The notes beneath the pieces are model-generated. The model ran no database searches and was not told where the DNA came from. It worked only from the letters and a program-made list of their open reading frames with translations. Source: an uncultured Nitrososphaeraceae archaeon (GTDB taxonomy: Archaea > Thermoproteota > Nitrososphaeria > Nitrososphaerales > Nitrososphaeraceae). Taken from it: 64,000 nucleotides of DNA. The translations under genes were made by a program, and so were the position numbers. Below, in pieces: positions 36,548 to 47,640 of the stretch. Position 1 is the stretch's first letter; the number at the start of each line of letters is the position of its first letter. The DNA lies in assembly GCA_963779615.1 (NCBI GenBank), contig CAVZZA010000003.1:640001-704000 (forward strand), written 5' to 3'.

Positions 36548-38003
36548 TTGGAAGAAAGAATAAGTAAAGACGCCTGGATTTCTTTGGTAATACTAAGCTC
36601 AATTGCGCTCATAACTATGTATGGGGAGACAATGCTCATACCCGCAATCCCCGATCTTGTAAAAGATTTTGAAATTCCATACAATACATCCTCATGGATA
36701 CTTACAGTGTATTTGATTACAGGTGCAGTGATGACGCCTATTGTGGGCAAATTATCCGACATCCATGGAAAGAAAAAAGTATTGTTGATAATTATGGTGA
36801 TCTATTCAATTGGCACTTTGCTAGGTGGAATATCCACAAATATCATGACTATGGTAGTTTCAAGGATAATCCAAGGAATTGGTATCGCAATGTTTCCTGT
36901 AGCTTTTGGAATTATCCGGGAGAAGTTTCCTGAAAAAAAGCTTGCAATAGGACAGGGAATATTCACCTCGGTATTTGCAGCAGGTTCAGTGGTAGGTCTT
37001 GGACTAGGAGCAGCCATTGTTGAACATTTTGGTTGGCGTATGACTTTTCTGTCAATCATACCATTTGCAGTTATTTTGCTGTTTATAATAAAAAAATTTG
37101 TTCACATCATATCAGAAAGACTAGCATTAAAAACGGAAAACGGGGACATTGATGTTAAAGGAACAATAACATTAATTGTGATGCTATCCTCATTTCTGGT
37201 TGCACTAACGTTATTACCTGGACTGATAACGGGTAACGAGAATAATAATAATTATAGTTTGCTGCATACCATTGCGTTATTCGCTTTATCATCTGCCTTA
37301 TTACCCACATTCATTTCAATCCAAAAAAAGTCCAAATCTCCTTTAATTAATTTACAATTGCTAAAAGATGCAGTTCTTCTTCCAACCAATATTTTGATAA
37401 TGACAATCGGCATTTCCATATTAATAATATATCAATCCTTACCGATACTGATACAAAGTCCCCATCCACTTGGCTTTGGAGGTGGTCCGGTTGAAGCTGC
37501 AAGCGTACAGCTTCCATTTATGATACTAACGTTGATAGTGTCTGTATCCTCGGGGTTTCTCATATCAAAGATTGGAAACATAAAACCAACAATAATGGGA
37601 TGTATAATAAGGTACTGTTGGATTTTTTTTGCTTTTCATCTACCATTCAAATGAATTTCTAATAGCTGTAGAATTGGCTGTTGTCGCCATTGGGCTATCC
37701 TTTGCCGAAATAGGTGCTTTTAACATTGTGCTGGTGTCAACACCACCGCATTTGAGTGGAACCTCACTGGGAATTACCATGCTATTGTTCCTTATAGGCA
37801 TGTCAGTTGGCCCCGCCATATCTGGAATTTATTTGGAGAGTTTTAAGTCGTCAATCAAAGGTATTGATGGGCATTATCCATCTAATTTCTCATATGACAT
37901 GATTTTTCTCACTGCTGTTATAATATCTATATTCTCAATAACTCTTACAATAATAGTAACAAAAAAAATGTCACCTGTGATTTCGCAGAAAAACCAATAT
38001 TAA
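36548..38003 (+). pseudogene. MFS transporter (DHA2-like) with a single frameshift near 37611
   Basis: ORFs 36548..37654 and 37629..38003 together align with the intact paralog 45363..47039 (GKLSDIHGKKK motif A); one extra base after GCII. May be an assembly error. Confidence 0.8.
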
Positions 38004-39264: not shown

Positions 39265-40619
39265 TTATCTTTCTTTATTTATTTCCTTTAACACATCATC
39301 CGCATAATGTTTTGCCTCGTCTGCTGAGAGTGATGGTTTTATCCCAGTTTGTTCAGTTATAGCCTCTGTCAGACTTATGACCTTTCTCTCTAATTCCTGA
39401 TGCATCTGAGTGTACCTAGGCTGTCAAGCAACTTTGTCTCATCCAATATAGTTCTCTTTATTTCACGGCGTAACTCAGAATCCTGTGCCACTGTTACGGC
39501 GGAGTTCAACAGTCCAACCAAGAGTAGGAATGCAGATAGTGGCACGAAAGAGATGCTAATAAGCCCAAATGGAGGAATTCCTGCAGCGGCCACTGTAGAG
39601 TTAGCCGCAATAAAATAAAATACTATGCCATATGCAGCTGCAAACATATACTCTCTTATACTGCGAGAAGTTTTTACAAGCCGTCCTACAGATCGAAAGC
39701 CAATACCATTTAGGGTTCCAAGGAAGGTTGTAAATACGATAATAAGGAACATCTCTATTGCAGGTGTTTCTGTTTTACTAATAGTTGAGCTCATTTGATA
39801 CAACTCGTCATAAGCGGAAATATATATAACATAAAAAGTAATTATAGGCACGGTTATGAGAAACCAAAATAATGGTTTTCCTACCCTTTTAATATTGTAG
39901 CGTAGAAGAACTATACTTCCACACCACATCAAAATGATGTAGGCGAATTGGGAATATGTTTGGAAATTAATGATAAAACACTTGAATGGATTTTTATCAC
40001 ACTCAAAATTGAATTCAACAGCAGAATCCCCTGTAAACATCAGGGGCTTTTCTACTAATAACTGCTCAAACAAAATGGCAGAACCTATTGCATTAATGGT
40101 AAAGCATGTGGCAGCTAGTCCATAGATCAAGATTATGGGAGATTTCTTTATTTTAAACCACCTGAGCAATTTACATGCAAGAAAACCCATTAATACAGAA
40201 GTAAAACCATAAGCGATTATAACAACTGCCGATATCATATGAATATAATATTGTGAGTAAATATAGATCTGTAAAATGCTTACAACAACAAGGCCAGTTA
40301 AAAGATACAAAACCATCGTCATTGCTTTTTGTAATAGGATAATTTGTGAGTCTTTTACTTTATATTCAGATAATCGTGCTTTGGTTATGGATAAAATGAT
40401 ATACTGACCTAAAAAACATAATATAGCAATAACAGAAAATGATAATACTCCCAATGACGAGGAGGCGTGTAGTTTGAATGTATCGAGGGCACTGCTAATA
40501 TAGTAGTCGACTAGAAGCGCAGCCAAGATAATTAATGAAATTACAAAAAATCTTCTGCTGTCATAGTGTAAAGAACATATATTACCAAGATAGCGATTGT
40601 GAAAGATCAAATTCACCAT
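39265..40619 (-). pseudogene. polytopic membrane protein of unknown function, paralog 2, with a 1-bp frameshift near 39411
   Basis: IPPFGL..LLLVGLLNSA..DSELR, LLDSLGT; the shifted frame restores QMHQELERKV..EQTGIKPSLSADEAKHYADDVLKEINKER*, matching the tails of paralogs 1 and 3. Confidence 0.8.
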
Positions 40620-40690: not shown

Positions 40691-41511
40691 GAGTCTATCC
40701 CAAAATTCTATGGAATTATAGCTTGTTTTGATCACTGCTAAAGTGTGCCTGTTTCCAAAAGGAGAGGGATAAAAAGGATGATTGCACTATACTCAATATT
40801 CCAGGAGAACTATAGGATGAAATATAAATCATTTTACCAAAGGAGAAACCGCCTAAACAATAGGCCGACCAATCATACCCTTCAGAAAAGTAATTGATGG
40901 TGTCCTATACATCCTAAGAACTGAATGTCAGTGGAAGTTGCTGCCTGCAGAGATGGCTCTGGTTTCACATGTCACAGAAGATTTCAGGAGTGGGTCGGGT
41001 TAGACTTTTCAAAAAGGTGTGGAGTAGAGAAGCAAACTGGGCACAAAAAGGCATATTTTAGCGGCTACAAAGGAATCCCACTCTCAGTTGTCATGTCTTC
41101 CGCAAGCACTCATGATATAAAAATGGTAACAGATGTAATGGATAATATAATTATCAAACGATCATCATCATTAACAAAACATAACTTATACAGAATAAGA
41201 AAACTACAACACCTATGACTTGATAAGGCGTACGATTCCAAGACAGCAAAACAGGAAATCATCAGCCAAGGATATGTGCCACATTTACCGTACAGGAGAA
41301 AAAGAGGGGAAGTCAAGACAGAAACACAAAAGATGTCAAATCGAAAAAAAACACCTTGCTAGAAGGTTGGTTGTGGAAAGAACCAACTCATGGCACAATC
41401 GATTTAGAAAACTGTACACAAGATATGAAAAGAAAGTAGGGAATTATCTTGGCTTGGTACAGTTCTCATGTTGTATCATCATCTACAGAAAGATGATTTT
41501 GGGATTAGGCT
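40691..41511 (+). mobile_element. IS5-family insertion sequence, degenerate (same type as 11819..12754)
   Basis: Ends GAGTCTATCCCAAAAT / ATTTTGGGATTAGGC; fragments TCHRRFQEW, GIPLSVVMSSASTHD, VVERTNSWHNRFRKL. Confidence 0.85.
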
Positions 41512-42300
41512 AAGTCATCATCCCAATCTTTATGATAGAATTCAATGATAGAATTCAATGAAGATTTACAAACGTGTCATTTTTATTTTATTATCTGATA
41601 TGCATTATTAGTTAGAGGCATTAAGCAGAAAGATGCTCTTTTAGGTTATACTTAATGAATGACATAATTCGTAATTACAGAAGTAATGTCTTTGTATTTG
41701 CATTTCTACTACCATAAGTAAAGTATATGGATCTTTAATTATTGGAATTAGTTAATATCGCCATAGAAGAAAATCATTACACACATTTAAAATATCAATA
41801 GAAATCCAACCTGTGTTTTATAAAATCCTATGAATAGCAAATAGATATCAGTCGTAAATAGAATTTGTATGTTCTCTCCTGAAGGTCCAAAATTAATTTT
41901 CCATCCTAAAAATCCGTGCATCAGTGGACAAGTAATTTATAACAGGATCTACACTAACAAATTGCATATCCTGCTTTCTTTCCCAATAAGCAAATCTGTA
42001 CTCATTGTTTTCCAAATCCAGATGATGTGTTTTTAAATCTACATACATATTCTCCCAATATTTTAAATATTAAATTTGAGATAAAGAAGGATTGATTGAA
42101 CCAACAATTGTGAGCTTGGCTAATAATGCCCTACTATACCATTTGCGAATTTGAACGATAATTCACCGTTTGGTAAAATCTAGTTCATTCATTCTACTTA
42201 TAACGGAAGCTTACCGAATCCTACTTCTTTTTGATCTAATCCTTTAACTACCATAAAGATTCCACAATTTTCCCAATTATTTTCGCAAACCAAATACCGC

Positions 42301-43425
42301 CTAATGAGAATTGGAATTCGATTCAGAAGACATTGTAGACTCTATTAAATCAACCAATGCTTTGGTTATTGGAAGGTTCGTTTGTCGTTCTATCCACACC
42401 CAGTCTCCCGTGGGGTTGACCTCCAAGAAATAGGGTTTTTCATTTACATCCAGTATAAAGTCAATGGCACCATATTTGAGACCGAGCAGTCTAATGAATC
42501 GGACACAGATTGAGTGAAATTCCTTTTGGAGATGGACAGGCCTCTTATGGAGCTGTGAAATGGGGTAACGATGTAAAACATCTCCACCTTTAGCCCCTGA
42601 TTCAAATTTTATCTCACTTGCAAATACTTTATCATCCACTACTGTTACTCTCAATTCAGAGGTTTTATGTATTCTTTCTTGTAGTATACAAGGAGCGTGA
42701 ACTAGATCATTAAATTTCAAGAGGTCGTTGTGATTTAGGACGTGTGTGTAAATGGAATACAACTCACCATTTGTTTCAATATCATGATGATGTAAGACTT
42801 TTACTACCATATTTTCATTACAAGTATGATAAAATCTGGATGCCTCATTTGGGTCATTTGTAATAAGCGTTGATGGAATGTTGAAACCCACGTTCTTTGC
42901 AGAAAGAAGTTGATTTACACGACTACTACTATGATACATGCTATCAAGGCTATTTATCCATGTACATTTCAGTAAACCATACAGGGTTTGCAATGCATCA
43001 TGCCATTGCTGAAAGGCAAATGTGGAATTTAGTTGGCGGCCATCATAACTTTTCAAAGCGAAATCAAAATTGCGTAGCCATACAACTGAAATATCTGACA
43101 CATTTATAACTGAGTCGCCTATTTTAATTTGAAATAGTGGTTCAGAAGCCTGCGATATGTTATAACAGATACTAAAAGAATGAGGTATATCTTCAATGTT
43201 TAAGCGCAGGTAATCAATACCTCGACGGAGAAGTTCGGTACCCACAATATCTGCTTCAAGGTCCATAATACTGCTTAAGATTAACACTTTCGAAGAAAAA
43301 AGACCACATTCAGGAAATATCTTTACCTTTGTGGTCAGGAAATCCCTAAAGTCAGTAGATAACGTTTCTTCGGGTTTTTTTTCAATTTTATCTACAAAGT
43401 GACAAAGAAATGGAATGCCTGGCAA
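42301..43425 (-). CDS. ATP-grasp peptide maturase, graspetide-synthetase (MvdC/MvdD-like) type
   Basis: VLILSS..D.EAD.V, NQLL.A..GFNIPSTLITND, PCILQERI.K..ELRVTVV, YGAIDFI..PYFLEVNPTGDWVWIE..LPITKAL. Confidence 0.85.
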   Translation of the reverse strand: MPGIPFLCHFVDKIEKKPEETLSTDFRDFLTTKVKIFPECGLFSSKVLILSSIMDLEADIVGTELLRRGIDYLRLNIEDIPHSFSICYNISQASEPLFQIKIGDSVINVSDISVVWLRNFDFALKSYDGRQLNSTFAFQQWHDALQTLYGLLKCTWINSLDSMYHSSSRVNQLLSAKNVGFNIPSTLITNDPNEASRFYHTCNENMVVKVLHHHDIETNGELYSIYTHVLNHNDLLKFNDLVHAPCILQERIHKTSELRVTVVDDKVFASEIKFESGAKGGDVLHRYPISQLHKRPVHLQKEFHSICVRFIRLLGLKYGAIDFILDVNEKPYFLEVNPTGDWVWIERQTNLPITKALVDLIESTMSSESNSNSH

Positions 43426-43439
43426 TAGTCAGTCATCAA

Positions 43440-43700
43440 TTAATGGGACTTTTTTCCGGGAGGAGGACAACTACGTCCAGGAGGACCACCATCTGCACCA
43501 ATACCATATTTTATGTTTAGATTCCCTGCTGCCGTTAGGATAGTTTCCTTTTCGTCTCTCAGAAATTGCTTTCCCGCGTCGTCAAGTCCCTGCGCATCAC
43601 TCAAGAACTGATCTATGTCAGTTGCATTCAAATAGTTGTTTCGGTATTGATCGTCAATAAACAATTTTCCTATGATGTTTATGGATTCAAGATTACCCAT
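43440..43700 (-). CDS. putative RiPP precursor peptide (NHLP/Os1348-like leader plus Gly/Pro-rich core)
   Basis: 86 aa, 14 bp upstream of the ATP-grasp gene; IIGKLFIDDQYRNNYL resembles the IGRA..D..FR..L leader motif; tail GADGGPPGRSCPPPGKKSH. Confidence 0.7.
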   Translation of the reverse strand: MGNLESINIIGKLFIDDQYRNNYLNATDIDQFLSDAQGLDDAGKQFLRDEKETILTAAGNLNIKYGIGADGGPPGRSCPPPGKKSH

Positions 43701-43721
43701 GAATATCCGACAAGCACTCCA

Positions 43722-43735
43722 TTATATAGCTTTTT
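43722..43735 (-). promoter_or_regulatory. BRE/TATA promoter of the precursor/ATP-grasp operon (leaderless-type spacing)
   Basis: Minus strand aaaaagc-TATATAA ending about 21 bp before the precursor ATG. Confidence 0.65.
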
Positions 43736-44061
43736 GGCTTAATGCCTCATTTTTTCCTATTGTCTACACTTACTTCGTTATTTTATAACCTTATTGTCTA
43801 ATTCTTCGTTAGTTCCGCTACACATATATCTTCAAATAACTTGCGCCTATACAGTAACTACCGAAAAAACGCCTTAAAGATCGCTCAATAGAGACAGGAA
43901 TAACAGTATTGGAAAGATCACAAAGTAAAAAATAATGATGTTTCAACAAAATAGGCGTTAGCGGACTAATGGACAAAACGCTGTCTAAAGCGAAGTATTT
44001 TGCGGAGTTAAAGAAAGACAGGTTAAGAATGACTAGAGAGCACATAGCTTTTAAATAATAA

Positions 44062-45122
44062 TAGATCTCTTGCTTAATTGCCACTAGACATCTTTATGAC
44101 CATTAATTCATTGATTCCCATTGATTCCCTGTACTTTCTTTGCTCTCGTATGACAGGTTATCCAAAAAACCGATACTTTTCAAATAATTCACCGGTCTGA
44201 CGGTAAAGGAGTTTGACGATATTTGTGATAAGGGGCTATTGAAAAGACACGGCAGGCATGAGATCAGGCGACCGTCCAATAGAAAAGACAGTAGGGAACG
44301 ATCCATAGGTGCAGGCAGGCATTTCAAACTGGATGTAAAGAACAGGTTTATGATGCTTTTGGTCTACTGCCGTCTTTACAATATCCACACATTGGCTGGT
44401 TTTTTTTTGTTTGACTTGGACCAGAGTAACATTTGCATGGACATACAGAAGATTGAGCCGCCGGTAAGAAAGTGCGTGCCAATTCCACAAAAGATGCGCA
44501 AAATAACCAAAAGGCTGCGCACACCAGAGGAAGTTGAAGGCATTTTCCACGGATTCTGTCATTCATAGATTGCACAGAACAACAAATTTCAAGGCCTTAA
44601 AATAAGAGACGAAAGAAGATGTACTATTAGGGCAAGAAGAAAAGGCATACCGTAAAGACAGCTTATGGTTAACAACCAGGGCCTCATCATTCACAAAGCA
44701 AGCCACAAGAAAGGATAAAGGCATGACTATGACATATACAAAAAGAATCACTCAATAACCCCAAAGCAGGTTGTCAGCGTGTTTGAGCTTGGTTATCTTG
44801 GGGTTGAGAAAGACATTCCTGACCAAATATCATCCTTGCCAAACAAAAAGAGAAACCAAAAAGACCTGTCTCAAGAAGAGAAAGATTACAACCAGAACCA
44901 CTCTAGAAAGAGAATGGCGATAGAGCACACCATTTGCAGAATGAAAAGGTACAGGATAATGAGCGATGTCTTCAGAAACAGGTTGAGAAATTATGCCAGG
45001 ATAACTGAAATAGCATCAGGGCTGGTAAACTATAGAATATTAGCATCTCCTTTTTAGATGGGCATCATCATTCATTGCCATGCTGAACAGAGAATACTGT
45101 TTCTAAATATGCAAGACATCTA
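44062..45122 (+). mobile_element. IS5-superfamily (ISL2-like, HTH_Tnp_4/DDE_Tnp_4) insertion sequence, degenerate
   Basis: TIR TAGATCTCTTGCTTAA / ATATGCAAGACATCTA; fragments GAGRHFKLDVKNRFMMLLVY, ELGYLG, RMAIEHTICRMKRYRIM. Confidence 0.88.
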
Positions 45123-45362: not shown

Positions 45363-47039
45363 TTAAACATTTACCCGAAGTGCCTTTGTCTTTCTACTCA
45401 ATGCTATAGATATTGCTATTGACACAATTGAAAGTATTACAGCAGTAAGAAATATCAAATTAAAAGAATAGGTTGAGGGCAATGATTCGGACACTCCTTT
45501 AATATTAATCACGGTTTGATTAGTTTGCATATACATTGCAGCAAGAGCCGGACCGATAGAGGCTCCTATTATCCTTAACATGCTACTCATCCCTATAGTC
45601 ACCCCAGCAGACTCCCGTGGTGAAGATAGAATGATTATGTTCATTGCGCCAACGGCAGCTAGCGATAGCCCAGCGGACAATATGGCTAAACCGGTTGAGA
45701 TAAATAATTCCGAGGAATGAAATAAGAACAACACGGCAAAGCCAAATGTGGTTAAAATAGAACCAAAGATAATCGGTTTTAGGGATCCCAATTTGGATAT
45801 GATGAATCCAGACGTGGGTCCAAATATCAAAAGTACAATTGCAAACGGCAGTTGAACTCTACCGGTGTCTACAGAGTTTTCTCCAAATCCAATGGGTTGT
45901 GAAGTTTGTACTAGAATAGGTATGGTCTGAAAAACCATAAACATCGACATGCCCACAATCATTATAATCAGACTAGAAAACAATATTGTGGGCTGAAGGA
46001 AAATTTTAAAGTCAATCAATGGAAATTCGGCGCGTCTTTCAGTGTAAACAAACAGGATAAGCGAAACCGTCCCCATTGCTAAAAAGGGAAAAATAGTTTC
46101 AAAGGTATTGTAAAAGTTAGAAACACCATTGGATTTGATATTTAGGCTACCATCTGCTCCTGTTGCTGGTCCGGGCCCTGCTGCCGGGGGCTGCAATAAT
46201 GTTATCGAAAGAAGAAACGAAGTGATGGTAATTGCCAACAGTATCGATCCTTTAACATCCATTTGGCTTTTCCTTATTTTTACTTCCCTCTCTGGTTTTT
46301 TACCATTATTGTGGCCTTTTGCCGTTTTGGCCTTTTCCGCATTTAATTTACTGTTTTCTATTTCGTAGCTGTAATCATCGTCGATATGGATATACTTTCG
46401 AATTATGTATAGGAGTATTATTGAAATAGGTATTATTGTAAAAAAGGTCATTCTCCAACCAAAATGCTGGATAATAAGGCCGCCAATGGATAATCCAATA
46501 ACCGAGCCAGCTGCAAACATAGAGGTAATAGCACCCTGTGCAATCGATATTTTTTCGCGCGGGAATTGGTCTCTCACGATGCTAAAAGCAATTGGAAACA
46601 TTGACATACCAAATCCCTGAATTGCCCTTGAGATTATAAGGGTAAATATATCATTTGCAAACCCCCCAAGAGAGACACCCGCTGTATATATTACCATTAT
46701 TATCAACAATATCTTTTTCCTACCATAAGTATCAGATAACTTGCCGGCTATGGGAGTCATAACAGCTCCAGATATCAGGTATGAGGTCAAAATCCAAGAA
46801 GACAATCCATACGACACATCAAAATTGCTTATCAATGTTGGAATGGCCGGTATCAGCATTGTCTCTGCATACATTACCATAGTCGCAATACAACTCAGAA
46901 TAACAAGAATTTTCCATGCATAAGGTGGAATTTTTAAGTGTTTTTTTGGTTGAGAATTATAACGACCGTCATCATTATCGCCATCTTTTGAAAATGCCCC
47001 TTGTATTTCATTTGTTTTTTCTTTTTTTGAATTTTTCAT
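45363..47039 (-). CDS. MFS transporter (14-TM DHA2-like drug:H+ antiporter)
   Basis: GKLSDTYGRKK motif A, RAIQGFG, GWRMTF; directly downstream of MarR. Confidence 0.92.
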   Translation of the reverse strand: MKNSKKEKTNEIQGAFSKDGDNDDGRYNSQPKKHLKIPPYAWKILVILSCIATMVMYAETMLIPAIPTLISNFDVSYGLSSWILTSYLISGAVMTPIAGKLSDTYGRKKILLIIMVIYTAGVSLGGFANDIFTLIISRAIQGFGMSMFPIAFSIVRDQFPREKISIAQGAITSMFAAGSVIGLSIGGLIIQHFGWRMTFFTIIPISIILLYIIRKYIHIDDDYSYEIENSKLNAEKAKTAKGHNNGKKPEREVKIRKSQMDVKGSILLAITITSFLLSITLLQPPAAGPGPATGADGSLNIKSNGVSNFYNTFETIFPFLAMGTVSLILFVYTERRAEFPLIDFKIFLQPTILFSSLIIMIVGMSMFMVFQTIPILVQTSQPIGFGENSVDTGRVQLPFAIVLLIFGPTSGFIISKLGSLKPIIFGSILTTFGFAVLFLFHSSELFISTGLAILSAGLSLAAVGAMNIIILSSPRESAGVTIGMSSMLRIIGASIGPALAAMYMQTNQTVINIKGVSESLPSTYSFNLIFLTAVILSIVSIAISIALSRKTKALRVNV

Positions 47040-47082: not shown

Positions 47083-47640
47083 TCAAAGACCTGGCGAGGT
47101 TTTATTAAAGGTGGAAGCAACTTTTTCTTTTTCTTGTAGTTCGGGCATAACAGCATTATTTCTTTTTTGTTTATACTGCTCTGCAAGGTTTAAATTGAAT
47201 TCGTTTTGGATGTTGTTCCACATTTTTTCCAATGTGTTTTTTGTTATTGAAATATTTTCTTCAGAAATGTCATTCAAAGATATTTTTTTTATCCTTAATC
47301 CACAGTCTATCATCAGATCCTGAACACCGCATAGTTTTTCTGTAAGAAAAATTCTATTGTTTCGCCTGTCAGTCGGATCTACTTTTCTGACAACAAACCC
47401 ATCTTTTTCTAATTTATCGATAATAGGGATAAGAGTCGGGCCCTCAAGGCCAAGCTTATCGGCTATCTCTTTCTGAGTTAAGCCATTATCATCATTATTC
47501 ACCAGTATTATAATGATCTTCCATTGACCGAAAGTAATTCCCACATTCTTCCGTAGTTCCTGGTCAAAGGCCTGAATCAACACCTTTGCGGTCCTGTTGA
47601 TTATAAATCCAATACTATTTTCAAAATCAAATTTTTGCAT
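47083..47640 (-). CDS. MarR-family transcriptional regulator
   Basis: LTQKEIADKLGLEGPTLIPIIDKLEKDGFVVRKVDPTDRR winged helix. Confidence 0.93.
   Translation of the reverse strand: MQKFDFENSIGFIINRTAKVLIQAFDQELRKNVGITFGQWKIIIILVNNDDNGLTQKEIADKLGLEGPTLIPIIDKLEKDGFVVRKVDPTDRRNNRIFLTEKLCGVQDLMIDCGLRIKKISLNDISEENISITKNTLEKMWNNIQNEFNLNLAEQYKQKRNNAVMPELQEKEKVASTFNKTSPGL

What the first reader, a model, noticed from the sequence alone, without database searches (positions are those of the whole stretch)
42301..43735. Archaeal RiPP-like locus: NHLP/Os1348-like precursor plus graspetide-type ATP-grasp ligase
Seen: a TATA/BRE promoter, an 86-aa gene and, 14 bp later, an ATP-grasp gene with the C-terminal signature YGAIDFI..FLEVNP.G.W.W.E..LPI..AL. 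Known: this signature marks microviridin/graspetide synthetases, which form omega-ester or omega-amide crosslinks between Thr/Ser/Lys and Asp/Glu. The IIGK...D..YR..YL motif resembles NHLP-clan leaders, which are usually paired with other modifying enzymes. Inference: this pairs an NHLP-like leader with an ATP-grasp maturase in an ammonia-oxidising archaeon. The tail (KYGIGADGGPPGRSCPPPGKKSH) has only one Asp, placed before the Ser/Lys residues. That differs from canonical TxKxxxD/E graspetide cores and suggests reversed-orientation rings, C-terminal carboxylate ligation or another new chemistry.
Basis: partly seen in the sequence, partly recalled or inferred. Interest (0 to 1): 0.85.

Follow-up and report, generated by a model that had tools for sequence, protein, structure and literature searches.

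The report
Archaeal peptide ligase with built-in leader
A soil ammonia-oxidising archaeon carries a small helical protein gene next to a peptide-crosslinking enzyme that seems to carry, fused to its own front end, the recognition motif normally found on the enzyme's substrate.

Summary
An 86-aa ORF (43440-43700, -) ends 14 nt before a 374-aa ATP-grasp gene (42301-43425, -) in a Ca. Nitrosocosmicus-type, amoA-positive genome. By HMM, PDB sequence search and fold the ligase is graspetide-type (MdnB/MdnC/CdnC/PsnB/PruB), not RimK/LysX, though below the curated cut-offs. The small ORF belongs to a family of about 25 members. Its relatives give weak, sub-cutoff hits to the Os1348/NHLP-clan model; the window copy gives none. 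It lies directly upstream of all 3 other ligases at 57% identity or more. A complex model supports binding (0.75, best control 0.01).

(1) The ligase has a 46-aa N-terminal extension with a PFLCxF motif, always 42 residues before the core. The motif looks like the PFFARFL/Phhx(1,2)h graspetide leader motif. The extension marks one clade (40 of 40 rows, 0 of 98 outside). I read it as a natural in-cis leader, like engineered leader-fused ligases; this is inferred. (2) The Pro-rich tail is a lineage-specific insertion: typical members are 70 aa and end KY.GE[DN]K... The chemistry is unknown. New variant of a known kind; interest about 0.7.

The parts
43701..43745 (-). Promoter-like region: TATA-like tatataa at 43728-43722 with a purine-rich BRE-like stretch at 43737-43729, 28 nt before the ATG. 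This spacing would give a leaderless or near-leaderless mRNA.
   Evidence: Read directly. L102 has a comparable box. It is a consensus match only, in AT-rich DNA.
43518..43700 (-). Small ORF, residues 1-61: five-helix leader-like domain, a divergent member of the Os1348/NHLP clan.
   Evidence: AF2 gives helices 3-15, 17-24, 29-35, 41-49 and 51-60, with block pLDDT 74-84 for residues 11-60. Relatives hit NF038399. Residues 3-15 and 50-67 form the predicted interface with the ligase.
43440..43517 (-). Small ORF, residues 62-86 plus the stop codon: disordered C-terminal tail and candidate core. It holds Y65, D70 and the nearly invariant K84. GIGADGGPPGRSCPPPG is a lineage-specific insertion.
   Evidence: pLDDT is below 50 for residues 66-86. 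The 25-member alignment gives the family tail. RNA-library contigs show in-frame 3/6/3-nt deletions at 43452-43458.
43426..43439 (-). 14-nt spacer between the small ORF's stop and the ligase's TTG start.
   Evidence: Contigs of 4 of 4 RNA libraries laid cross this junction.
43288..43425 (-). Ligase residues 1-46: the clade-specific N-terminal extension. The PFLCHFVD motif is residues 5-12 (43390-43413). The amphipathic helix is residues 26-34 (43324-43350).
   Evidence: All family HMMs and PDB matches start at about residue 42-47. P5 is Pro in 97 of 98 filled rows, C8 is Cys in 91, D12 is Asp in 91 of 100. The motif lies exactly 42 residues before the core in every extension-bearing locus. AF2 gives H6-10, E13-16 and H26-34, with pLDDT 88 for residues 1-10. 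Residues 20-38 touch the small protein in the complex model.
42301..43287 (-). Ligase residues 47-374 plus the stop codon: MvdD-type pre-ATP-grasp domain and ATP-grasp domain.
   Evidence: TIGR04187 2e-57, MvdC 3.2e-54, MvdD 5.5e-44. PF21068 7.2e-7. AF2 pLDDT 89.9. Foldseek top hits are CdnC, AMdnB, MdnC, PruB, MdnB and PsnB. K209, R259, D322, E335 and N337 are invariant in 107 sequences.
39265..40619 (-). Multi-TM membrane protein gene of a Nitrososphaerota-only family, split near its 3' end here (409-aa and 46-aa ORFs). It recurs next to ligases of this clade; its role is unknown.
   Evidence: Homologues lie in 21 loci, all with extension-clade ligases, and in none of the extension-less loci. 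Intact forms are 446-453 aa. No Pfam or NCBIfam hit. Atlas result. There are 8 matches in the own genome, this gene included.
40925..41513 (+). Degraded transposase gene (two 97-aa ORFs) between the ligase and the membrane protein gene.
   Evidence: DDE_Tnp_1_2 at 2.2e-4, below the Pfam cut-off.
44239..45057 (+). Degraded transposase gene upstream of the small ORF.
   Evidence: HTH_Tnp_4 at 1.6e-3 and DDE_Tnp_4 at 1.2e-11. No flanking repeats were found.

Best explanation
This is a two-gene RiPP-like cassette. The small protein is a five-helix, Os1348/NHLP-like domain followed by a short, flexible C-terminal tail. The ligase is a graspetide-type ATP-grasp enzyme with an added 46-residue N-terminal extension.

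Proposed mechanism, all steps inferred:
1. The PFLCxF helix of the extension acts as a built-in (cis) leader. It fills the canonical hydrophobic leader pocket, whose residues are kept, and holds the enzyme in its active state.
2. The second helix of the extension (residues 26-34), together with the first helix of the pre-ATP-grasp domain (56-67), forms a docking platform for the helical domain of the small protein.
3. The tethered tail reaches the active site. There an Asp/Glu carboxylate is phosphorylated and joined to the nearly invariant Lys84 (amide) or to Ser85 (ester).

Shown here: the gene pair, the ligase's family and fold, the clade-specific extension and its motif, co-occurrence of the two genes, and model support for binding. 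Not shown: any modification, and where the PFLCxF helix sits.
For: Ligase type:
- NCBIfam ranks the graspetide models far above the housekeeping ones: TIGR04187 2e-57, MvdC 3.2e-54, MvdD 5.5e-44, against RimK_fam 7.7e-15 and LysX 1.3e-5.
- A PDB profile search gives AMdnB 1.3e-62, MdnB 6.4e-55, CdnC 5.7e-49 and MdnC 3.5e-47, against RimK 3.3e-8.
- The AF2 model (pLDDT 89.9) matches CdnC, AMdnB, MdnC, PruB, MdnB and PsnB (2e-27 to 3e-21). ArgX and RimK appear only from rank 33.
- K209, R259, D322, E335 and N337 are invariant in 107 sequences. R259 aligns with MdnC R217. MdnC's leader-pocket residues L196/L199/F206 align with F238/L241/L248 (pocket residues taken from passages of 10.1101/2021.03.09.434688).

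Extension:
- It is absent from every HMM and PDB match.
- The P-h-h-x-x-h motif lies exactly 42 residues before the core in every extension-bearing locus.
- On a tree built from the core alone, the extension marks one clade (SH-aLRT 99). All 40 of its rows have it: 38 by regex, and L140 and L157 by eye. None of the 98 rows outside has it.
- AF2 folds residues 1-20 with confidence (pLDDT 88 and 82).
- The same motif type (PFFARF, PFLLRF, PFLFRF, PFILNF, PFLVQF) occurs in stand-alone small ORFs upstream of extension-less ligases in 13 of 90 loci examined.
- Passages of PMC8939145 describe PFFARFL and Phhx(1,2)h as the ligase-activating leader motif.
- Passages of PMC7823629, PMC13003496 and the PsnB preprint say that engineered N-terminal leader-ligase fusions process leaderless cores.

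Partner:
- The small ORF lies directly upstream of the ligase in L100 (83% ligase identity), L101 (76%) and L102 (57%). These are 3 of 3 such loci, and 3 of the 176 non-window loci searched.
- 11 of 25 small-ORF clusters share contig length and source with a listed ligase cluster at 43-79% identity; one of these pairs is L102 again.
- NF038399 (Os1348 NHLP clan) is the best hit for the L102 ORF (2.3e-6), P0125 (0.0042) and P0123 (0.017). For the ORF upstream of the L026 ligase it scores 6.6e-12, 45.3 bits, above the cut-off of 40.
- The small ORFs in front of extension ligases have no Pro motif.
- Complex model: score 0.75 (runs 0.76, 0.63, 0.75), best control 0.01. That mark was reached by 58 of 80 solved complexes and 2 of 110 mismatched pairs. 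The runs agree in at least 34% of contacts, and the partner's pLDDT is at least 68. The interface is ligase 20-38 and 54-69 with small protein 3-15 and 50-67. No solved complex of this kind is known to me, so a pass from memory is unlikely.
- The small protein's tail is disordered.
- RNA-library contigs from 4 studies bridge the junction of the two genes.
Against: - The ligase scores below every curated cut-off (194.8 against 350).
- The window's small ORF has no Pfam or NCBIfam hit even at E<=10.
- Its AF2 model matches the Os1348 crystal structure 6lk7 only at E 6.8, TM 0.37/0.44. PDB sequence searches found nothing.
- The conserved tail is only about 10 residues. Of 23 complete tails, 2 have no Asp or Glu. 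In most, Glu and Lys are two residues apart, which would give an unusually small ring.
- In microviridins, plesiocin and thuringinins the nucleophile precedes the acid (passage of PMC7823629). Here the order is reversed.
- No protease or dedicated exporter is conserved in the cassette.
- Other subclades with the same extension lack this partner. One has no adjacent small ORF: the Nitrosocosmicus ligases that sit between a histidine kinase and a response regulator. Another has a membrane protein gene directly upstream. So the extension is not tied to this partner alone.
- Where the PFLCxF helix docks was not determined.
- The similarity between the extension and real leaders covers only the 10-residue motif (hhalign E 0.0013, probability 18%).
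- Contigs from RNA libraries cannot prove transcription or a single transcript.
Confidence: 0.55

Rival explanations
1. The small protein is an accessory or regulatory subunit of the ligase, not its substrate. It would act as an adaptor bound to the N-terminal platform. The real substrate would be encoded elsewhere, for example the C-terminal tail of the recurrent membrane protein or an unlinked peptide.
For: The predicted interface involves only the helical domain; no confident contact involves the tail. The tail is very short, and 2 of 23 tails lack an acid. Ligases with the same extension exist without this small ORF. A membrane protein of one family lies within about 3 kb of the ligase in 21 loci and in at least five different arrangements.
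Against: The order 'small ORF directly upstream of the ligase' is the classical precursor-enzyme order. It recurs with unrelated small ORFs in other subclades, including L140 and L157, whose small ORFs end in Ser/Thr/Lys- and Asp/Glu-rich tails. K84 is nearly invariant, and the tail keeps its reading frame through indels. The Os1348 prototype is itself thought to be a modified precursor (abstract and sections 15 and 20 of PMC7726476).
Confidence: 0.2
2. The N-terminal extension is itself the substrate. It would be a whole precursor (leader plus core) fused to its ligase and modified in cis, possibly then cleaved off. The upstream small ORF would have another role.
For: The extension (46 aa) is about as long as a microviridin-type precursor: upstream ORFs of 42-61 aa carry PFFARF. 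The motif sits near the N-terminus, as in leaders (residue 5). Residues 23-35 hold Thr, Asp and Lys at fairly conserved positions (T24 in 43 rows, D25 in 75, K33 in 50, K35 in 60, of 107). Ligases without any adjacent small ORF still keep the extension.
Against: Residues 26-34 are predicted to form an amphipathic helix packed on the enzyme and to make up the partner interface. D25 and T24 are not kept in the Nitrosocosmicus histidine-kinase-linked subclade. The strictly constant spacing of 42 residues fits a structural tether better than a variable core.
Confidence: 0.1
3. The ligase is a housekeeping or carrier-protein type ATP-grasp, like RimK or LysX. It would add an amino acid to the C-terminal carboxylate of the small protein, which would act as a carrier like LysW or a target like ribosomal protein S6. 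No macrocycle would form.
For: The family C-terminus is conserved in position (K-x-x-COOH). Two tails have no side-chain acid. RimK, MptN and LysX models give weak hits (7.7e-15 to 1.3e-5).
Against: Graspetide models, PDB sequences and folds rank far above RimK, LysX and ArgX. The MvdD-type pre-ATP-grasp domain passes its Pfam cut-off. No lysine or arginine biosynthesis genes lie nearby. The tail is basic, not acidic.
Confidence: 0.08
4. The cassette is a decaying remnant in an IS-ridden region and no longer functions.
For: Degraded transposase genes lie on both sides. The nearby membrane protein and MFS genes are each split. The cassette was found in 1 of 16 same-genus genomes searched.
Against: Both ORFs are intact, and the catalytic residues are kept. 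Relatives at 95-99% identity in four RNA libraries differ in the ORF only by in-frame indels. Homologous pairs are conserved down to 57% ligase identity.
Confidence: 0.05

Closest known systems
Graspetide (microviridin-type) synthetases MdnC/MdnB, AMdnB, CdnC, PsnB and PruB with their precursors
   Same: Same fold and domain order: an MvdD-type pre-ATP-grasp domain followed by an ATP-grasp domain. These are the best HMM, PDB-sequence and fold matches. The Mg/ATP residues, the Arg aligned with MdnC R217 and the hydrophobic leader-pocket positions are conserved. A small ORF lies directly upstream.
   Different: Scores are below all curated family cut-offs. The enzyme has an extra 46-aa N-terminal extension. 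The leader-type Pro motif is on the enzyme, not on the small ORF. The partner has a 60-residue helical domain and a tail of about 10 residues with the acid before the Lys. The host is an archaeon. No product is known.
Engineered leader-fused ligases: leader peptide fused to the N-terminus of MdnB/MdnC, and LP_PsnB
   Same: A leader-type motif is attached covalently to the N-terminus of the ligase. In the engineered cases this gives an enzyme that modifies leaderless cores (passages of PMC7823629, PMC13003496 and 10.1101/2021.03.09.434688).
   Different: Here the fusion is natural, conserved across a clade and at a fixed spacing. It comes with a second helix that is predicted to recruit a separate helical protein. 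Activation in cis is inferred, not shown.
Os1348 of Pseudomonas sp. Os17 (NCBIfam NF038399, PDB 6lk7) and the NHLP clan of RiPP leaders
   Same: A small all-helical protein of about 85 aa with a short disordered C-terminus. It is thought to be a modified precursor linked to antibiotic activity (abstract and sections 15 and 20 of PMC7726476). Relatives of the window's ORF have this model as best hit.
   Different: In Os17 the partners are a GNAT, a HEXXH peptidase and a SagB-type dehydrogenase, with no ATP-grasp enzyme. The window's ORF does not reach the model at all, and the fold match to 6lk7 is not significant. A SagB-type gene follows the extension ligase only in L140 and L157.
RimK, and LysX/ArgX with the carrier protein LysW
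   Same: An ATP-grasp ligase acting on the tail of a small protein.
   Different: These rank far lower by sequence and fold. The pathway context is missing, and the tail is basic rather than acidic.

Membership tests
Graspetide synthetase (NCBIfam TIGR04187/TIGR04185/TIGR04184) | Score at or above the curated cut-off of a family model | tested here: not met
   These are the best hits, but all fall below cut-off: 194.8 against 350, 184.2 against 425, 150.6 against 475. The same holds for 6 other ligases of the clade.
Graspetide synthetase | MvdD-type pre-ATP-grasp domain (PF21068) followed by an ATP-grasp domain | tested here: met
   PF21068 scores 29.8 bits (cut-off 27) over residues 46-159. 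PF08443 scores 29.6 bits (cut-off 21) over residues 172-361.
Graspetide synthetase | Fold and sequence closer to solved graspetide ligases than to RimK, LysX or GshB | tested here: met
   Foldseek gives CdnC 2e-27 down to PsnB 3e-21, against ArgX 7e-17 and RimK 5e-16. hmmsearch gives AMdnB 1.3e-62 against RimK 3.3e-8.
Graspetide synthetase | Conserved nucleotide/Mg residues and the Arg that recognises the ring-forming acid | tested here: met
   K209, R259, D322, E335 and N337 are invariant in 107 sequences. R259 aligns with MdnC R217. Its equivalence to PsnB R213 rests on the paper's statement that this Arg is conserved; I did not align the two here.
Graspetide system | Adjacent precursor with an N-terminal leader carrying the Phhx(1,2)h motif and a core with Thr/Ser/Lys before Asp/Glu | tested here: not met
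   The small ORF family has no Pro motif in its N-terminal part. Its tail has the acid before the Lys. The motif is on the ligase instead.
Graspetide system | Side-chain omega-ester or omega-amide crosslinks in the product | not testable with these tools
   This needs co-expression and mass spectrometry.
Os1348 family, NHLP clan (NCBIfam NF038399) | Score at or above the model cut-off of 40 bits | tested here: not met
   The window ORF has no hit at E<=10. Relatives score 27.6 (L102 ORF), 17.1 (P0125) and 15.2 (P0123) bits. Only the ORF upstream of the L026 ligase passes, at 45.3 bits. Its link to the window's family is weak (hhalign E 0.0016, probability 16%).
Os1348 family, NHLP clan | All-helical domain of about 60-80 residues with a short disordered C-terminus | tested here: met
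   AF2 gives five helices in residues 3-60 and pLDDT below 50 from residue 66 on. The Os1348 crystal has six helices and its last six residues are disordered (section 20 of PMC7726476).
Os1348 family, NHLP clan | Structural similarity to the Os1348 crystal structure (6lk7) | tested here: inconclusive
   6lk7_C is rank 2 and has the best TM-score (0.37/0.44), but E is 6.8 and probability 0.11. The query model has pLDDT of only 67.
RimK / LysX / GshB housekeeping ATP-grasp ligases | Best match to, and cut-off reached for, one of these models; pathway genes nearby | tested here: not met
   RimK_fam scores 55 against 143.4, LysX 24.5 against 275.6, and the S6 ligase 24.1 against 331. The neighbours are transposase remnants, an MFS transporter, a MarR regulator and a membrane protein.

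The most novel reading that the evidence does not exclude
A whole clade of ATP-grasp peptide ligases carries its substrate's leader in cis. The clade is mostly from Nitrososphaeraceae, with a few bacterial members. An ancestral precursor gene fused to the ligase gene, so the PFLCxF helix now permanently fills the leader pocket. The rest of the former precursor became a second docking helix. This helix recruits leader-motif-free partners: Os1348/NHLP-like proteins here, other small ORFs elsewhere, and possibly none in the two-component-linked Nitrosocosmicus form. That would be the natural counterpart of the engineered leader-fused enzymes. It would also be the first graspetide-like chemistry in archaea, acting on a tail in which the acid precedes the amine.
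Probability: 0.4. Interest if true: 0.8.

Novelty: new variant of a known kind. Interest (0 to 1): 0.7.

Why it matters
Leader peptides are how RiPP enzymes find and are switched on by their substrates. Chemists fuse leaders to enzymes to obtain leader-independent catalysts. A natural, clade-wide fusion of this kind would show that evolution found the same solution, and it would offer ready-made enzymes for leaderless substrates.

It would also show how a ligase can swap recognition systems, from a Pro-motif leader to an NHLP-type helical domain.

Graspetide-type products have not been described from archaea in the literature I could search. No paper held both 'graspetide' and 'Thaumarchaeota', and none held both 'Nitrosocosmicus' and 'ATP-grasp'. 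Soil ammonia oxidisers are ecologically important and hard to study. A secreted or crosslinked peptide from them would therefore be of interest for interactions among soil microbes.

Tried and rejected
- Covariation (APC-corrected mutual information, 97 sequences, Neff 67) between extension and core, meant to locate the docking site. Gappy columns dominated the result. The motif itself is too conserved to covary. Only V34-L66 was suggestive. Not used.
- hhalign of the small-ORF family against the roughly 100-aa upstream ORFs of L105 and L110: E 0.029, probability 1.7%. Homology not shown.
- hhalign of the extension against real precursors (L011, L142): only the 10-residue motif aligns.
- PDB sequence searches with the small-ORF profiles A2 and A6: only chance-level rows. 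With the L026 ORF, nitrile hydratase alpha scored 0.041 and 6lk7 scored 0.72.
- Foldseek of the small-protein model: nothing significant.
- The exhaustive HMMER search with the single 86-aa protein gave 3 hits. One is a 1161-aa repetitive protein (P0124) matching residues 18-48 in 7 repeat units. I treat it as unrelated.
- The profile search of 401 class genomes found the small ORF only in the own genome, plus one marginal hit (G252, E 0.0086). That locus (L099) gave no ligase match at E<=1e-5.
- No direct or inverted repeats flank the cassette, and its composition is unremarkable. There is no evidence for a composite transposon.
- Earlier findings of this scan: nothing relevant.
- The paper with the MdnC structure (PMC5117808) is not held. 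I used passages of a review and of the PsnB preprint instead.
- Protein Atlas on the membrane protein: only Nitrososphaerota hypothetical clusters. A 7TM histidine-kinase lead at 0.83 is too weak to use.
- The parts of 42201-43800 not covered by RNA-library contigs are not evidence of anything.
- Only one complex job was available. It went on the ligase plus small protein, so the extension was not tested against the core on its own.
- Supplementary tables of PMC8939145, which list loci and precursor clusters, were closed. They may already list some of these archaeal loci.
Full report
OBSERVATION. The two genes are as described. The 86-aa ORF runs 43440-43700 (-) from an ATG. The 374-aa ORF runs 42301-43425 (-) from a TTG. 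The spacer is 14 nt. An in-frame TGA two codons upstream leaves the TTG as the only start that can give the conserved N-terminus. A TATA-like box lies 28 nt before the ATG, and the homologous locus L102 has one at about 30 nt. In DNA of 30-40% G+C this is only a consensus match. The genome encodes archaeal AmoA. Its same-genus relatives carry Ca. Nitrosocosmicus titles. Both genes are single-copy in the 3.17-Mb assembly, which is 92.5% complete.

THE LIGASE. NCBIfam ranks three graspetide models first: TIGR04187 2e-57, MvdC 3.2e-54 and MvdD 5.5e-44. RimK_fam follows at 7.7e-15 and LysX at 1.3e-5, and no model reaches its curated cut-off. Pfam finds the MvdD pre-ATP-grasp domain above its cut-off. 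A profile of 25 homologues hits AMdnB (1.3e-62), MdnB, CdnC, MdnC, PruB and PsnB in the PDB, with RimK at 3.3e-8. An AlphaFold2 model built on 107 sequences has mean pLDDT 89.9 and pTM 0.89. Its best fold matches are CdnC, AMdnB, MdnC, PruB, MdnB and PsnB, while ArgX and RimK appear only from rank 33. K209, R259, D322, E335 and N337 are invariant, and R259 aligns with MdnC R217.

THE N-TERMINAL EXTENSION. All HMM, PDB and fold matches begin at about residue 42-47. The 46 residues before that are nevertheless conserved. Among 107 homologues, P5 is Pro in 97 of 98 filled rows, C8 is Cys in 91 and D12 is Asp in 91 of 100, giving a consensus PFLC[QH]F[VI]D. A variable linker follows, then an amphipathic helix, [ST]DF[RK]xFL[TA]x[KR]LK.

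In every locus with the extension, the Pro motif sits exactly 42 residues before the first strand of the core. I built a maximum-likelihood tree from the core alone (138 rows, quick search, LG+G4). In it, the extension-bearing ligases form one clade with SH-aLRT 99. The clade has 40 rows. My regex flagged 38 of them. The other two, L140 and L157, also have a same-length extension with P[FL]IL at -41/-42. None of the 98 rows outside the clade has the extension. The two odd rows and L026 sit on long branches, so their exact position is unsure. AlphaFold2 folds residues 6-10 as a helix, 13-16 as a strand and 26-34 as a helix, with block pLDDT of 88, 82, 75 and 74.

WHY I READ THE EXTENSION AS A CIS LEADER. 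Passages of PMC8939145 say that microviridin-type leaders carry PFFARFL. They say graspetide leaders in general carry Phhx(1,2)h within the first 30 residues, and that this region binds and activates the ligase. PFLCHF fits that pattern.

My own loci show the same motif type in stand-alone small ORFs directly upstream of extension-less ligases. PFFARF, PFFAQF or PFFARY occur in nine loci, and PFLLRF, PFLFRF, PFILNF and PFLVQF in one each. That is 13 of the 90 loci that had at least 400 bp upstream. One of these (L011) comes from a genome of the same archaeal family.

In the pairwise alignment, MdnC's leader-pocket residues L196/L199/F206 correspond to F238/L241/L248 of this ligase (pocket residues from the PsnB preprint; alignment). 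L241 is invariant in the 25-sequence alignment. The small ORFs in front of extension-bearing ligases have no Pro motif. Passages of PMC7823629, PMC13003496 and the PsnB preprint report that leaders fused by engineering to the N-terminus of MdnB, MdnC or PsnB give enzymes that process leaderless cores.

The inference that the natural extension works the same way rests on these resemblances. I could not see where the helix docks, because no coordinates were available. The covariation analysis was uninformative. Similarity to real leaders covers only the 10-residue motif.

THE SMALL PROTEIN. On its own it has no Pfam or NCBIfam hit, even at E<=10. It belongs to a family of 25 clusters, typically 70 aa long. 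Three of four tested members have the Os1348 NHLP-clan model NF038399 as their best hit: the L102 ORF at 2.3e-6 (27.6 bits), P0125 at 0.0042 and P0123 at 0.017. All are below the 40-bit cut-off. The 78-aa ORF directly upstream of the deep-branching extension ligase in L026 passes the cut-off (45.3 bits), but its link to the window's family is weak (hhalign E 0.0016, probability 16%).

AlphaFold2 gives five helices in residues 3-60 and a disordered tail from residue 66 on, with mean pLDDT of only 67. The Os1348 crystal structure has six helices and a disordered C-terminus (section 20 of PMC7726476). It is the best TM-score match, but the match is not significant.

In Pseudomonas sp. Os17 the Os1348 partners are a GNAT, a HEXXH peptidase and a SagB-type dehydrogenase, not an ATP-grasp enzyme (section 15).

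CO-OCCURRENCE. tblastn with five family members against all 179 stored loci found the small ORF only in the window's own loci and in L100, L101 and L102. In each it lies immediately upstream of a ligase that is 83, 76 or 57% identical. In L100 and L101 the contig end cuts the ORF.

In addition, 11 of the 25 small-ORF clusters share contig length and source with a listed ligase cluster at 43-79% identity. One of these pairs is L102 again. This evidence is circumstantial, because the tool that could show the contigs was closed.

Other subclades have other upstream genes. L105 and L110 have helical ORFs of about 100 aa with an IGKALNDQ motif. L018, L118 and L121 have ORFs of 46-53 aa. L104, L106, L108, L031 and L148 have a multi-TM protein. 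In the Nitrosocosmicus subclade there is no small ORF at all. That subclade is present in 8 of the 15 other same-genus genomes searched. There the ligase sits between a divergent histidine kinase and a response regulator plus dodecin. The own genome lacks that module at the syntenic dodecin locus.

L140 and L157 do not look archaeal. They show a classical cluster: small ORF, extension ligase, SagB-family dehydrogenase (TIGR04511, 3.1e-54 and 1e-40) and an MFS transporter.

BINDING MODEL. The complex job used the full ligase with its 107-row alignment and the small protein with a 7-row alignment. It scored 0.75 (runs 0.76, 0.63, 0.75) against a best control of 0.01. That mark was reached by 58 of 80 solved complexes and 2 of 110 mismatched pairs. 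The runs agree in at least 34% of contacts, and the partner's pLDDT is at least 68. The counts hold only roughly, because my own alignments were used. The result supports binding but does not show it.

The interface is informative. Ligase residues 20-38 (the second helix of the extension) and 54-69 (the first helix of the pre-ATP-grasp domain) touch residues 3-15 and 50-67 of the small protein. This is not the canonical leader site, and the PFLCxF segment takes no part. That fits a division of labour: the motif acts in cis, and the second helix recruits the partner. The tail made no confident contacts.

THE TAIL. The typical end is ..L[DN]IKY.GE[DN]K[RS]x. K84 is nearly invariant. Of 23 complete tails, 21 have at least one Asp or Glu between Y65 and that Lys, and 2 have none.

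The acid precedes the amine. This is the reverse of the order reported for microviridins, plesiocin and thuringinins (passage of PMC7823629). In most members the spacing is i, i+2. In the window it is 14 residues (D70 to K84). An Asp/Glu-Lys lactam, an ester to Ser85, or use of the C-terminal carboxylate are all possible, and I cannot choose among them.

In contigs from four RNA libraries of four studies (95-99% identical relatives), the three indels inside the ORF are 3, 6 and 3 nt long and all fall in tail codons. The one 1-nt indel lies upstream of the ATG. One contig in each of the 4 runs bridges the junction between the small ORF and the ligase. This fits a translated, length-variable tail and co-transcription. 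However, contigs cannot prove either point, and RNA libraries can hold DNA.

SURROUNDINGS. Degraded transposase genes lie on both sides (40925-41513 and 44239-45057), with no flanking repeats. On the same strand upstream are a MarR gene and a 14-TM-type MFS gene (47083-47640 and 45363-47039). Downstream is a multi-TM protein gene, split near its 3' end (39265-40619). Its family is confined to Nitrososphaerota. It has 8 matches in this genome, this gene included. Members lie within the stored flanks of extension-clade ligases in 21 loci, in at least five arrangements, and in none of the loci with extension-less ligases. This suggests a functional link such as export, immunity or being the target, but I cannot say which.

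VERDICT. This is a graspetide-like cassette of a new variety. It has an archaeal host, an NHLP/Os1348-like helical partner instead of a Pro-motif leader peptide, and a ligase clade that carries the leader-type motif on its own N-terminus. The gene pair, the family assignments and the clade-specific extension are shown. Binding has model support. The cis-leader function and the crosslink chemistry are inferred.

I found no paper on graspetides in Thaumarchaeota or Nitrosocosmicus, or on natural leader-ligase fusions, in the library. Subscription journals and the supplementary tables of PMC8939145 could not be checked.

Noticed in passing
window 39265-40619 (-): A multi-TM protein gene is split into a 409-aa and a 46-aa ORF. 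Intact homologues of 446-453 aa carry the 46-aa piece as their C-terminal tail (L102:727-2067, L105:2603-3964). The family is confined to Nitrososphaerota, has no Pfam or NCBIfam hit, has 8 matches in this genome (this gene included) and recurs next to extension-clade ligases.
   Followed up: partly
window 36548-38003 (+): An MFS transporter gene is split into two overlapping ORFs of 368 and 124 aa. Its N-terminus resembles that of the intact MFS gene at 45363-47039.
   Followed up: no
window 40925-41513 (+) and 44239-45057 (+): Two degraded transposase genes (DDE_Tnp_1_2; HTH_Tnp_4 plus DDE_Tnp_4) bracket the cassette. No terminal or flanking repeats were found.
   Followed up: partly
L011:1287-1514 (genome G373, same family) and L142:2773-2997: A canonical graspetide-type cluster occurs in a relative. 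A 74-75-aa small ORF with a PFLFRF or PFLLRF leader motif and a conserved ..KKCDIEKG[ED]D.KD.. C-terminal region lies directly upstream of an extension-less ligase.
   Followed up: partly
L140:417-4460 and L157:1321-5068: These are long-branch members of the extension clade on contigs that do not look archaeal. The order is a small ORF (56 or 48 aa, with an acidic Ser/Thr/Lys-rich tail), the extension ligase, a SagB-family dehydrogenase (TIGR04511) and an MFS transporter.
   Followed up: partly
L003-L010, L019-L025 (same-genus genomes); own genome C3:747000-757000 (L182): In 8 of 15 other same-genus genomes an extension ligase sits between a divergently transcribed histidine kinase with a Cys-rich N-terminus and a response regulator plus dodecin, with no adjacent small ORF. 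The own genome keeps the dodecin, DUF-like and rhodanese neighbours but lacks this module.
   Followed up: partly
L018:283-426, L118:89-229, L121:2795-2956: A different conserved small ORF of 46-53 aa lies directly upstream of another extension-ligase subclade. It has a basic amphipathic N-terminus followed by a hydrophobic stretch. It has no family hit.
   Followed up: no
L031 and L148 (ligase at about 1105-2260): The extension ligase of a Nitrososphaerales genome is broken by a frameshift: a 222-aa ORF, then the remainder in another frame.
   Followed up: no
window 43452-43458: Close relatives in four RNA libraries differ here by in-frame deletions of 3, 6 and 3 nt in the Lys/Gly/Pro codons of the tail. 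This spot varies in length.
   Followed up: partly
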